From the IMG/VR virus record IMGVR_UViG_2529293217_000011: a stretch of DNA of 20,446 bases, one strand, 5' to 3'. A program made the translations under genes and the position numbers. Below, piece after piece: positions 10,096 through 10,916 of the stretch; the stretch's first letter is position 1; each line of letters begins with the position of its first letter. The notes beneath the pieces were generated by a model. That model made no database searches. It saw only the letters and a list, made by a program, of their open reading frames with translations, and had not been told where the DNA came from. This DNA is from a virus (lineage: Duplodnaviria; Heunggongvirae; Uroviricota; Caudoviricetes).

Positions 10096-10884
10096 TTACC
10101 CCCTGAAGCCTGGCGGGATCGCACTGTCCGGAAACGAGACGGTGTTAATCTGTCGGAGCAACGTCTCTGGCCGAACACCTTTCGGCGCGAACAAGCCCTG
10201 GTATTCATTGGCGATGCTGTGTCGAATCACCTGCTCAGGTGAAAAACCCTGCTGGCGGAATTTTTCCAGCTCCCGTATCGCCCCGTTAGCGCCCTGCTCC
10301 GTTCGAATCGGTTTTCGCAATGCCTGCCTGAACTGAACCCACTCATGCCAGAGTGTTTCCGGCAACCAGTCAGGCAGCTCGATAGCCTCCGGTTCGAATT
10401 TTTTAGACGCTCGTTTTTGGCGAGGGGGATTTAGGGGGAGATAAGTATTTATATCTTCCTCTTTCTCTTCCTCTGGTAACGCTTTTTGATCCGTTTTTGT
10501 AACGCTGGCAGCGTTACCTTTTCGTTTCAGTTCTCGTATTTTTGTTACTCTCTCGTTTGTAACCGCCCGTTTTTTAGAGCTTTTCCCGTTATGGCGCTCA
10601 AAGTTAGGAAGCGACAACACACCATTAGTTTCGACCAGCCATCCAACCTGAATTAACGCATCAGCAAAACCAGCCATAAAAGTGATGCGATCTATTGCAC
10701 TTTTTGTAACGCCGCGAGCGTTACACTCTGCGTTACCGTCTATCATTTGTTGATCCGCCCATGCCCAGAAGCGAATGACTTTCCCTAATGCGGCATCTGG
10801 ATCAATATTCAGAATCTCAGCAAGCCTGAATATTTCCGGCTTATCCGGCGTAATAACTTCGAGCTTTATCCAGTTTGAAGCCAT
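10096..10884 (-). CDS. ydaU: YdaU-like replication protein (lambda O-like position), 262 aa
   Basis: Immediately upstream of the DnaC-like gene; contains internal palindromic repeats (see repeat feature); acidic/basic linker typical of phage initiators. Confidence 0.7.
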   Translation of the reverse strand: MASNWIKLEVITPDKPEIFRLAEILNIDPDAALGKVIRFWAWADQQMIDGNAECNARGVTKSAIDRITFMAGFADALIQVGWLVETNGVLSLPNFERHNGKSSKKRAVTNERVTKIRELKRKGNAASVTKTDQKALPEEEKEEDINTYLPLNPPRQKRASKKFEPEAIELPDWLPETLWHEWVQFRQALRKPIRTEQGANGAIRELEKFRQQGFSPEQVIRHSIANEYQGLFAPKGVRPETLLRQINTVSFPDSAIPPGFRG

Positions 10885-10916
10885 TTGTTTTCACCTTGTA
10901 ACGCTCGCAGCGTTAC
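10499..10916. repeat. Three copies of a 19-bp palindrome GTAACGC(T)-N3-5-(A)GCGTTAC about 200 bp apart (10499-10517, 10706-10724, 10898-10916); candidate origin or initiator-binding sites
   Basis: Read directly: GTAACGCTGGCAGCGTTAC, GTAACGCCGCGAGCGTTAC, GTAACGCTCGCAGCGTTAC, each preceded by TTTTTG/CCTTG; extra half-sites at about 10475 and 10730. Two lie inside the YdaU-like gene and one 14 bp upstream of its start. Confidence 0.6.

What the first reader, a model, noticed from the sequence alone, without database searches (positions are those of the whole stretch)
10499..10916. Three evenly spaced 19-bp palindromes in and just upstream of the YdaU-like replication gene
GTAACGC-N-GCGTTAC palindromes lie at 10499, 10706 and 10898, about 200 bp apart, with additional half-sites. 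Two are inside the coding sequence of the O-like gene and one is 14 bp upstream of its start codon. This recalls the lambda origin sitting inside the O gene, but here the elements are dyad-symmetric and widely spaced, not tandem iterons. They could be an origin, autoregulatory operators, or sites for a partitioning or repressor protein.
Basis: seen in the sequence. Interest (0 to 1): 0.55.

Follow-up and report, generated by a model that had tools for sequence, protein, structure and literature searches.

The report
Replication origin inside phage initiator gene
The three palindromes are real and are most likely the docking sites of a prophage replication-initiator protein, written into that protein's own gene, and the same DNA layout recurs in phages of several bacterial phyla, which points to a widespread, apparently undescribed type of phage replication origin.

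Summary
GTAACGC-N5-GCGTTAC occurs three times, perfectly, at 10499, 10706 and 10898 (0.05 expected), and 8 of the window's 11 GTAACGC half-sites lie in 10476-10916.

The window is a Rac-type E. coli prophage. The gene (10096-10884, minus strand) is a phage replication initiator. Only its C-terminus is YdaU-like, and its N-terminal domain is an uncatalogued winged-helix-like domain.

In 74 related loci from several phyla, the same dyad sits at the same two intragenic positions. Synonymous codon choices preserve it. Variant lineages change both arms and both sites together (GTCACGC..GCGTGAC). Arms carry about 1.7 bits per position and spacers about 0.5.

The distal cluster is followed by a conserved half-site, an (AGAGA)n purine tract and an AT-rich patch. 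A DNA-only scan for that core in viral contigs recovered the initiator gene in 109 of 110 cases.

Best reading: these are initiator-binding sites forming an origin inside the initiator gene. This is lambda-like in logic but has a different protein family and a split two-cluster layout. The upstream third dyad is an accessory site found only in enterobacterial relatives, possibly autoregulatory.

No binding or replication data exist.

The parts
10096..10884 (-). Replication initiator gene (262 aa). It has an N-terminal winged-helix-like domain (aa 1-~100), a basic then acidic disordered linker (aa ~100-165), and a helical C-terminal domain shared with K-12 YdaU.
10706..10724 (.). Cluster A dyad GTAACGCcgcgaGCGTTAC (+160 from the ATG). 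It encodes C54-T60 in a low-confidence loop of the DNA-binding domain.
   Evidence: The same dyad lies at +136..+160 in most of the 74 loci. Codons are fixed as GGT AAC GCx xxx xGC GTT ACx.
10730..10736 (-). Extra half-site of cluster A (+148), encoding G50-N51-A52. It lies 12 nt from the dyad arm. The 12-nt (4-codon) insertion found in enterobacterial relatives duplicates this half-site.
10499..10517 (.). Cluster B dyad GTAACGCtggcaGCGTTAC (+367), in the disordered linker (G123-T129).
   Evidence: It is present at +337..+391 in most loci, in all three reading frames.
10476..10482 (+). Conserved terminal half-site of cluster B. On the sense strand it reads GCGTTACC, directly abutting the purine tract.
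   Evidence: The core GCGTTACC(N0-1)AGAGAAGAGAAG occurs in at least 120 viral contigs.
10454..10474 (-). 21-nt all-purine tract on the sense strand (AGAGGAAGAGAAAGAGGAAGA). It is a degenerate copy of the family's (AGAGA)n mirror repeat and encodes EEEKEED.
   Evidence: (a purine run of 15 nt or more at +330..+480 in 40 of 74 loci).
10440..10453 (.). AT-rich patch (sense strand TATAAATACTTATC) at the GC minimum of the gene. This is the candidate unwinding point.
   Evidence: GC 32.5% at 10440-10479; ATATAAA-like patch after the purine tract in many loci.
10898..10916 (.). Upstream dyad GTAACGCtcgcaGCGTTAC, 14 bp before the ATG and abutting the Shine-Dalgarno sequence. It is an accessory site specific to the enterobacterial branch.
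   Evidence: It is present at -32..-44 only in the window, L001-L004, L006 and L008, where an intergenic gap precedes the gene.
10927..10948 (-). 8-9 bp hairpin between the ydaT-like gene and the initiator gene, with no T-run after it. It may be a weak terminator or processing signal.
9343..10089 (-). DnaC/IstB-type AAA+ helicase-loader gene (ydaV-like), immediately downstream of the initiator.
   Evidence: (PF01695 at 2e-20).

Best explanation
The palindromes are paired half-sites (core TAACG) for the winged-helix N-terminal domain of the replication initiator, and the initiator's own gene carries them. Together they form the prophage's origin of replication, embedded in the initiator ORF as in lambda.

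Layout:
- Cluster A, three half-sites in > > < order at +148/+160/+172.
- Cluster B, at +367/+379/+402, about 200 bp from cluster A.
- Directly after cluster B, a conserved purine tract and an AT-rich patch.

Inferred mechanism:
1. Initiator dimers or oligomers load on both clusters and bridge or wrap the intervening DNA.
2. This destabilises the purine/AT-rich segment at 10440-10475.
3. The C-terminal domain brings in the downstream DnaC-like loader with host DnaB.

The third dyad, just upstream of the ATG, occurs only in enterobacterial relatives. It probably extends the complex or lets the initiator throttle its own expression.

Shown: DNA-level selection on the sites, their architecture, and their exclusive linkage to this gene. 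Inferred: who binds them, and that replication starts there.
For: (1) Conservation. Of 70 genome loci and 4 phages encoding relatives (31-93% identity; Enterobacterales, Pseudomonas, Burkholderiales, Planctomycetota, Verrucomicrobiota and others), most carry GTAACGC-N5-GCGTTAC with 0-1 mismatch at +136..160 and +337..391.

(2) The constraint is on DNA, not protein.
- Asn AAC pairs with Val GTT in 40/40 loci, and His CAC with Val GTG in 5/5.
- Gly is GGT in 37/38 (24% background in GC-rich loci). Ser is always AGC (26/26) and Gly before Val is always GGC (12/12).
- Cluster B sits in all three reading frames.
- Arms carry 1.74/1.62 bits per position, against 0.4-0.5 for spacers and flanks.

(3) One recogniser serves all sites. 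Variant lineages carry the same change in both arms and at both clusters (CC/CC in 5, AA/AA in 42). Epsilon15 uses GTCCGC in the same > > < < two-cluster layout.

(4) The element is protein-bound duplex rather than a hairpin.
- Only 1 of 58 non-Watson-Crick arm pairs is G.U.
- Isolated half-sites are conserved at 11-12-nt steps.
- There is no Rfam hit.

(5) Half-sites are 45-fold denser in -120..+480 than in the flanks.

(6) The initiator is the only gene shared by the loci (72/74; the next most common is in 21).

(7) Reciprocal test. A DNA-only scan for GCGTTACC(N0-1)AGAGAAGAGAAG found at least 120 viral contigs. Of the 110 with enough upstream sequence, 109 have the initiator domain on the same strand with the core at +360..447.

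(8) Origin-like context.
- A purine tract and the gene's GC minimum lie next to cluster B.
- A DnaC-like loader gene is downstream.
- The sites fall in a low-confidence loop and a disordered linker.
- The N-domain folds like a winged helix.

(9) K-12 ydaU has different repeats (GTTCAAAC x3) at the equivalent linker position. This matches a swap of initiator domain and sites as one unit.

(10) An identical module exists in the isolated phage vB_EcoS-673R7.
Against: - There is no experimental binding, opening or replication-start data for any family member (literature searches found none).
- The layout differs from characterised phage origins. It is two or three clusters 190-230 bp apart with no conserved helical phase, not a tandem iteron array.
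- The AT-rich patch is short (~14-20 bp).
- The loci are phylogenetically related, so the counts and the Fisher test overstate independence.
- The purine-tract codon test is partly circular, because the tract was defined as purine-only.
Confidence: 0.7

Rival explanations
1. The sites are autoregulatory operators only. The initiator (or another regulator) binds the dyads to repress or roadblock transcription of its own gene, and the origin lies elsewhere.
For: The upstream dyad abuts the ribosome-binding site, 14 bp before the ATG. Dyad operators bound by dimers are the norm for repressors. Intragenic sites could act as roadblocks or looping partners.
Against: - The upstream dyad is missing in most lineages, whereas the two intragenic clusters are near-universal.
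- No sigma-70-like promoter is predicted on the gene's strand near any dyad.
- This reading does not explain the strictly conserved junction of cluster B with the (AGAGA)n/AT-rich tract.
- It also does not explain the K-12 ydaU parallel of different repeats at the same linker position.
Confidence: 0.12
2. The palindromes act as RNA or single-stranded DNA hairpins, for example in mRNA stability, translational control at the ribosome-binding site, or a priming/loading hairpin.
For: Each dyad folds into a 7-9 bp stem in RNA (z-scores -2.6 to -3.8). The upstream hairpin sits right before the Shine-Dalgarno sequence. Symmetric arm changes also preserve pairing.
Against: - The stem sequence, not just the pairing, is nearly invariant across phyla.
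- Arm changes are concerted between the two sites of a genome.
- Among 58 disrupted pairs only 1 is G.U.
- Unpaired half-sites are conserved at fixed 11-12-nt steps.
- There is no Rfam family.
Confidence: 0.05
3. The sites are bound by a different protein: the prophage repressor, the Cro-like YdaS, the CII-like YdaT, a partition protein or a host factor.
For: Several HTH regulators are encoded within 1.2 kb. The binder has not been shown experimentally.
Against: - YdaT recognises TTGATT-N6-AATCAA (PMC11879457), which is present separately at 11374-11391.
- No regulator or Par gene is shared by the 74 loci. Only the initiator is, and no Par gene is annotated in the prophage.
- A host factor conserved from E. 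coli to Planctomycetota, with specificity that tracks phage lineage (GTCACGC, GTCCGC), is implausible.
Confidence: 0.08
4. The palindromes are a by-product of protein-coding constraint or chance.
For: The dyads translate to a repeated peptide motif, (G/C)NAx(S/G)VT, that is conserved in homologues.
Against: - Synonymous positions are fixed and co-vary symmetrically.
- Cluster B is conserved in three different reading frames.
- The third dyad is non-coding.
- Chance expectation is 0.05.
- The motifs lie in a low-confidence loop and a disordered linker.
Confidence: 0.02

Closest known systems
Bacteriophage lambda origin (ori-lambda inside gene O, with O initiator and P loader)
   Same: - Initiator-recognition repeats with internal dyad symmetry lie inside the initiator's own ORF, in the segment between the DNA-binding and loader-recruiting domains.
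- An easily unwound AT-rich, strand-asymmetric region is adjacent.
- The helicase-loader gene is immediately downstream.
- The N-domain and its sites exchange as one specificity module.
(Lambda layout as described in PMC6022878.)
   Different: - The initiator has no detectable homology to lambda O (no Pfam hit).
- The sites are not four tandem iterons. They form two intragenic clusters of 2-4 half-sites, 190-230 bp apart, one of them inside the DNA-binding-domain coding region, plus an optional upstream dyad.
- A conserved (AGAGA)n purine tract precedes the AT patch.
- The loader is DnaC/IstB-type rather than lambda P.
- The recognition sequence is nearly invariant across phyla.
Rac prophage oriJ / YdaU-YdaV module of E. 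coli K-12
   Same: - Same prophage type and gene order: repressor, cro-like, cII-like ydaT, initiator, ydaV.
- The C-terminal initiator domain and ydaV are about 94% identical in DNA.
- Repeats sit at the equivalent linker position, followed by the shared CCCCC-TAAAT-CCCCC sequence.
   Different: - K-12 YdaU has a DUF1376 N-domain and GTTCAAAC repeats.
- The window's initiator has an unrelated N-domain (no hhalign link) and GTAACGC dyads.
- It is therefore a different origin specificity on the same chassis.
Phage replication initiators of PHROG 2509/9474, often annotated 'primosomal protein I' or 'DNA replication protein' (epsilon15 gp, Xanthomonas CP2 ORF40, TL-2011b, PAN70)
   Same: The window protein is a full-length member. 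These phages carry the same two-cluster, purine-tract architecture inside the gene.
   Different: I found no published description of an origin or binding site for this family. Epsilon15 uses GTCCGC instead of GTAACGC. Many members have a DnaT-type C-terminal domain (PF17948) instead of the YdaU-type one.

Membership tests
Lambda-type origin (ori inside the initiator gene) | Repeated initiator-recognition sequences located within the initiator ORF, between its two domains | tested here: met
   Dyads lie at codons 54-60 and 123-129, and the linker is disordered in the AF2 model.
Lambda-type origin (ori inside the initiator gene) | Tandem array of about four closely spaced 18-19-bp iterons | tested here: not met
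   There are two or three clusters 192-207 bp apart, each of 2-3 half-sites at 12- or 23-nt steps.
Lambda-type origin (ori inside the initiator gene) | Adjacent AT-rich, strand-asymmetric unwinding region | tested here: met
   The gene's GC minimum (32.5%) is at 10440-10479, and a 21-nt purine run at 10454-10474 abuts cluster B. This is sequence-level only; unwinding was not tested.
Lambda-type origin (ori inside the initiator gene) | Initiator homologous to lambda O (Phage_rep_O) | tested here: not met
   No Pfam family for the window protein at E up to 1, and none of this kind in 40 homologues.
Lambda-type origin (ori inside the initiator gene) | Initiator binds the repeats and replication starts there | not testable with these tools
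   Needs EMSA or footprinting and an ori-plasmid or marker-frequency assay.
Lambda-type origin (ori inside the initiator gene) | Helicase-loader gene immediately downstream of the initiator | tested here: met
   9343-10089 is IstB/DnaC-like AAA+. It is DnaC-type, not lambda P.
Rac oriJ / YdaU (DUF1376) module | N-terminal DUF1376 domain | tested here: not met
   No Pfam hit. hhalign of the N-domain profile against K-12 YdaU gives probability 0.9%.
Rac oriJ / YdaU (DUF1376) module | YdaU C-terminal domain plus ydaV, in a Rac-type prophage at ttcA | tested here: met
   94% DNA identity over 10050-10353 to K-12. The context includes recET, kilR, sieB, intR and ttcA.
Rac oriJ / YdaU (DUF1376) module | Same linker repeats as K-12 ydaU | tested here: not met
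   K-12 has GTTCAAAC at +393, +426 and +449, and no GTAACGC dyads.
PHROG 2509 phage replication initiators | Full-length profile match | tested here: met
   3.2e-88, residues 1-262 against profile positions 1-277.
YdaT (CII-like) box | TTGATT-N6-AATCAA inverted repeat (PMC11879457) | tested here: not met
   The dyads are GTAACGC-N5-GCGTTAC. A perfect YdaT box lies elsewhere, at 11374-11391.
Autoregulatory operator | Site overlaps a promoter of the regulated gene | tested here: inconclusive
   No sigma-70-like promoter is predicted on the minus strand in 10300-11800. The scan is crude, and a roadblock mechanism would not need a promoter.
Structured RNA element or terminator | Pairing preserved through compensatory and G.U changes, with sequence free to vary | tested here: not met
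   The arm sequence is nearly invariant. Only 1 G.U among 58 disrupted pairs. No Rfam match. No T-run follows the dyads on the sense strand.
Partition site (parS-like) | Neighbouring ParA/ParB-type genes | tested here: not met
   None among the ORFs scanned or in the RefSeq annotation of the identical prophage.

The most novel reading that the evidence does not exclude
This is a pan-bacterial class of phage replicon in which the origin is hard-wired into the initiator's reading frame.

- The binding sites dictate parts of the protein sequence: the GNAxSVT motif, a 4-residue loop insertion created by a half-site duplication, and an (REEKR)n linker created by an (AGAGA)n tract.
- The recognition sequence has stayed almost unchanged across phyla.
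- The (AGAGA)n mirror repeat would be a new kind of unwinding or helicase-loading element. It could act by H-DNA formation or as a single-strand landing pad for the DnaT-like/YdaU-like C-terminal domain.
Probability: 0.3. Interest if true: 0.75.

Novelty: new variant of a known kind. Interest (0 to 1): 0.62.

Why it matters
If confirmed, this defines the cis-acting origin for a very large and uncharacterised family of phage and prophage replication initiators. The family has about 6,400 clusters at 50% identity and no Pfam model for the DNA-binding domain.

- It gives a simple sequence signature, dyad + half-site + (AGAGA)n, for locating origins in prophages and metagenomic phages from many phyla.
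- It is a clear example of a cis-element shaping a protein's sequence.
- It offers a compact two-gene replicon, with a near-universal recognition site, that could be tested as a broad-host-range vector backbone.
- It explains how Rac-type prophages of pathogenic E. coli differ from K-12 Rac (oriJ) in replication specificity.

Tried and rejected
- **YdaT as the binder:** rejected. The published box is TTGATT-N6-AATCAA and it lies at 11374-11391.
- **Rfam scan of 10000-11800:** nothing relevant.
- **Pfam and NCBIfam for the initiator:** no family. The only match is a weak one of the last 19 residues to the DnaT C-terminal tail.
- **Profile search of PDB sequences:** only a marginal DnaT hit in the C-domain.
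- **hhalign to K-12 YdaU:** no N-domain relationship.
- **Promoter scan:** no promoter near the dyads on the gene's strand.
- **Helical phasing of the two clusters:** distances range from 189 to 231 nt with no preferred phase, so phase-locked looping is not supported.
- **Plasmid collection:** only 2 hits, so this is not a common plasmid replicon.
- **Reading-frame argument for the purine tract:** dropped. (AGAGA)n encodes the same REEKR repeat in every frame. The Arg-codon count is partly circular.
- **Search for protein residues that co-vary with the A/C half-site variant:** the only column found was the Asn/His encoded by the site itself.
- **Seven literature searches** for oriJ, ydaU, epsilon15 origin, the motif strings, DnaT-like initiators and polypurine origins: no description of this element.

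Full report
**Observation**

The pattern GTAACGC-N5-GCGTTAC matches three times in the window, each time perfectly, at 10499-10517, 10706-10724 and 10898-10916. No further match appears even when two mismatches are allowed. Dinucleotide-preserving shuffles give 0.05 matches on average and never three.

The 7-nt half-site occurs 11 times against 1.95 expected. Eight of those lie within 10476-10916, including single half-sites at 10476 and 10730.

**Context**

The window is a Rac-type prophage of E. coli. It is 100% identical over 951 bp to several STEC/bovine strains. The RefSeq annotation of one of them shows intR, xisR, ralR, recT, recE, kilR and sieB, then a repressor, a cro-like gene, ydaT, a 'hypothetical protein' and ydaV, integrated next to ttcA.

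On the minus strand the genes are:
- 11381-11707, a cro-like HTH gene;
- 10962-11384, a CII-like YdaT gene;
- 10096-10884, the gene in question;
- 9343-10089, a DnaC/IstB-type AAA+ loader.

The 262-aa product matches PHROG 2509 'replication initiation protein' over its full length (3.2e-88) but has no Pfam family. Only its last ~100 codons resemble K-12 ydaU (94% DNA identity over window 10050-10353). The N-terminal domain shows no relationship to the DUF1376 domain of YdaU. 'YdaU-like' is therefore only half right. This is a mosaic initiator with a different origin-recognition half.

**Where the dyads sit in the protein**

Both intragenic dyads are read in the same frame, as xGT AAC GCx xxx xGC GTT ACx. 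This gives C-N-A-R-G-V-T (residues 54-60) and G-N-A-A-S-V-T (residues 123-129).

An AlphaFold2 model built on 40 homologues gives H16-25, H29-46, a low-confidence loop at 47-60, H61-68, H73-80 and a beta-hairpin at 84-91. After that come a basic helix, a disordered linker (pLDDT below 50 at 127-147) and a helical C-terminal domain.

**Comparative test**

A protein search found homologues down to about 40% identity. A scan of one genome per species returned 70 loci from Enterobacterales, Pseudomonas, Burkholderiales, Planctomycetota, Verrucomicrobiota (including Akkermansia) and others. The phage collection added epsilon15, Xanthomonas CP2, TL-2011b and PAN70, among 59 phage records.

In most of these loci the same dyad, with 0-1 mismatch, lies at +136..+160 and again at +337..+391 from the start codon. 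It is almost absent from the 3-kb flanks. Lineage-specific half-sites are 45-fold denser in -120..+480 than outside (297 against 59).

**DNA-level, not protein-level, constraint**

At cluster A:
- Asn is AAC and the partner Val is GTT in 40 of 40 loci.
- In the five His-containing lineages captured by the test, the codons are CAC and GTG. This is the symmetric A-to-C and T-to-G change that keeps the dyad (one search lists seven such lineages).
- Gly is GGT in 37 of 38, against 24% GGT elsewhere in GC-rich loci.
- Ser before Val is AGC in 26 of 26, and Gly before Val is GGC in 12 of 12.

Cluster B occupies all three reading frames in different lineages yet keeps its DNA sequence. Over 50 non-identical loci the arms carry 1.74 and 1.62 bits per position. 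Spacers and flanks carry 0.4-0.5. The third dyad is non-coding.

One caveat applies. The loci are related, so these counts are not independent events.

**One sequence-specific recogniser, acting on duplex DNA**

- Variant lineages carry the same variant in both arms and at both clusters of a genome (GTCACGC..GCGTGAC; CC/CC in 5 loci, AA/AA in 42).
- Epsilon15, at 32% protein identity, uses GTCCGC. It arranges it as > > < < at +54..+100 and again at +333..+368.
- Half-sites are stepped at 11-12 nt, and isolated half-sites are conserved.
- Among 58 arm pairs that are not Watson-Crick, only one is G.U. Deviations concentrate at the outer and inner arm positions, leaving a TAACG core.
- Rfam has no match.

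These points argue against an RNA or single-strand hairpin, even though the palindromes trivially fold.

The initiator is the only gene shared by the loci (72 of 74). The next real gene cluster is in 21, apart from an antisense ORF that overlaps the initiator itself. YdaT recognises TTGATT-N6-AATCAA (PMC11879457), and a perfect copy of that box sits at 11374-11391 over the ydaT start. The initiator is thus the only consistent candidate binder.

**Origin-like architecture**

Cluster B is followed, after 4-6 nt or more, by a further half-site that reads GCGTTACC on the sense strand. That half-site abuts an (AGAGA)n purine run, then an ATATAAA-like patch. A purine run of 15 nt or more lies at +330..+480 in 40 of 74 loci. 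Only 18 sense and 5 antisense runs occur elsewhere in 417 kb.

In the window these elements are:
- the half-site at 10476-10482;
- a 21-nt purine run at 10454-10474;
- an AT patch at 10440-10453.

Together they coincide with the gene's GC minimum (32.5%).

As a reciprocal test I scanned IMG/VR for GCGTTACC(N0-1)AGAGAAGAGAAG with no protein information. Of the 110 with enough upstream sequence, 109 encode the initiator N-domain on the same strand, with the core at +360..+447. In 89 of them a dyad with no more than one mismatch lies at the cluster A position.

K-12 ydaU has its own repeats (GTTCAAAC at +393, +426 and +449) at the equivalent linker position. These are followed by the sequence it shares with the window. 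That is what is expected if the N-domain and its sites are exchanged as one origin-specificity module.

The module is identical in the isolated phage vB_EcoS-673R7, so it is used by a viable phage.

**Interpretation**

The best reading is an origin of replication embedded in the initiator gene. Initiator oligomers would sit on two clusters about 200 bp apart. Opening would occur at the purine/AT-rich segment next to cluster B. DnaB would be loaded through the C-terminal domain and the DnaC-like loader. I put this at 0.7.

Binding and initiation are inferred. DNA-level selection, the architecture and the exclusive gene linkage are shown.

The upstream dyad (10898-10916) occurs only in enterobacterial relatives that have an intergenic gap before the gene, so it is an accessory site. 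Autoregulation or an extension of the nucleoprotein complex are both possible. No promoter is predicted there.

The distances between clusters vary from 189 to 231 nt without a preferred helical phase.

**Comparison with known systems**

The logic matches ori-lambda. [quoted passage not shown] Dyad symmetry is therefore not a difference from lambda.

The real differences are:
- the protein family;
- the split two-cluster layout, with one cluster inside the DNA-binding-domain coding region;
- the conserved (AGAGA)n tract;
- a DnaC-type loader;
- the near-invariance of the recognition sequence across phyla.

The element is not oriJ of K-12 Rac. It shares the chassis but not the specificity.

I found no paper describing an origin or binding site for this family. 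The library does not cover subscription journals, so prior description cannot be excluded. The family is large: 6,390 clusters at 50% identity at E up to 0.001, and 3,943 at E up to 1e-10.

**Verdict**

The finding is real and non-random, and it is under strong DNA-level selection. It is most likely the origin and initiator-binding sites of a widespread, uncharacterised phage replication module. I rate it a new variant of a known kind, with interest 0.62.

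Noticed in passing
window 11374-11391: A perfect TTGATT-N6-AATCAA box (TTGATTTTCATGAATCAA) spans the start codon of the ydaT-like gene. This matches the published YdaT box of K-12 Rac and CP-933P (PMC11879457) and suggests the same YdaT-dependent reverse-promoter circuit operates here.
   Followed up: partly
window 10454-10474 and loci L010-L072 at about +370..+430: The conserved (AGAGA)n tract is a perfect homopurine mirror repeat, so it has H-DNA potential. Because its 5-nt period is coprime with 3, it encodes the same (REEKR)n peptide in every reading frame. 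All Arg codons in the tract are AGA (58/58), against 4.6% AGA elsewhere in those genes.
   Followed up: partly
window 10706-10736, compared with L007, L010 and most loci: Enterobacterial relatives have a 12-nt insertion that duplicates the left half-site of cluster A (+148> +160> +172<). It appears in the protein as a 4-residue insertion (ECNA/DCNA) in a loop. This is a case where cis-element evolution changes the protein.
   Followed up: partly
window 10420-10453, compared with L001 and K-12 (L075): After the purine tract, relatives read GATCTAAATACTGATC (two Dam GATC sites) followed by CCCCC-TAAAT-CCCCC. The window reads GATATAAATACTTATC and has lost both GATC sites. The C-rich element recurs in many distant loci (CCCCCnTAnCCCCC). 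Its role is unknown.
   Followed up: no
window 10244-10884 (C-terminal residues 244-262 of the initiator): The last 19 residues weakly match the C-terminal tail of primosomal protein DnaT (NCBIfam PRK02854, E 0.004). Many homologues instead carry a full DnaT DNA-binding domain (PF17948). This hints at a primosome-like route for helicase recruitment.
   Followed up: no
window 529-605 and 706-781: ARAGORN finds prophage-borne tRNA-Arg(UCU), which decodes AGA, and a CAU-anticodon tRNA. RefSeq annotates the latter as tRNA-Ile in the identical strain. AGA is the Arg codon that the origin's purine tract forces on the family's linkers.
   Followed up: no
window 10927-10948: An 8-9 bp hairpin (TACCGAAC..GTTCGGTA) lies between the ydaT-like stop codon and the upstream dyad, with no T-run after it on the sense strand. 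In RNA it stacks next to the dyad hairpin just before the ribosome-binding site.
   Followed up: partly
loci L012 etc., antisense to the initiator's 5' half (offset about -37..+610): An antisense ORF overlapping the initiator's N-domain region clusters across 36 loci in an all-against-all BLAST. It is probably a by-product of the strong DNA conservation, but this was not examined.
   Followed up: no
loci L033, L037-L041, L045, L052, L054, L056-L061 (Verrucomicrobiota): This branch lacks the purine tract and has weaker, differently placed sites (about -60, +148, +355, +526, +708). This suggests a rearranged version of the element.
   Followed up: no
window 2861-6360: An ATP-binding protein, an O-methyltransferase and a convergent DNA cytosine methyltransferase sit in the late-early region of the prophage. 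They may form a modification or defence cassette.
   Followed up: no
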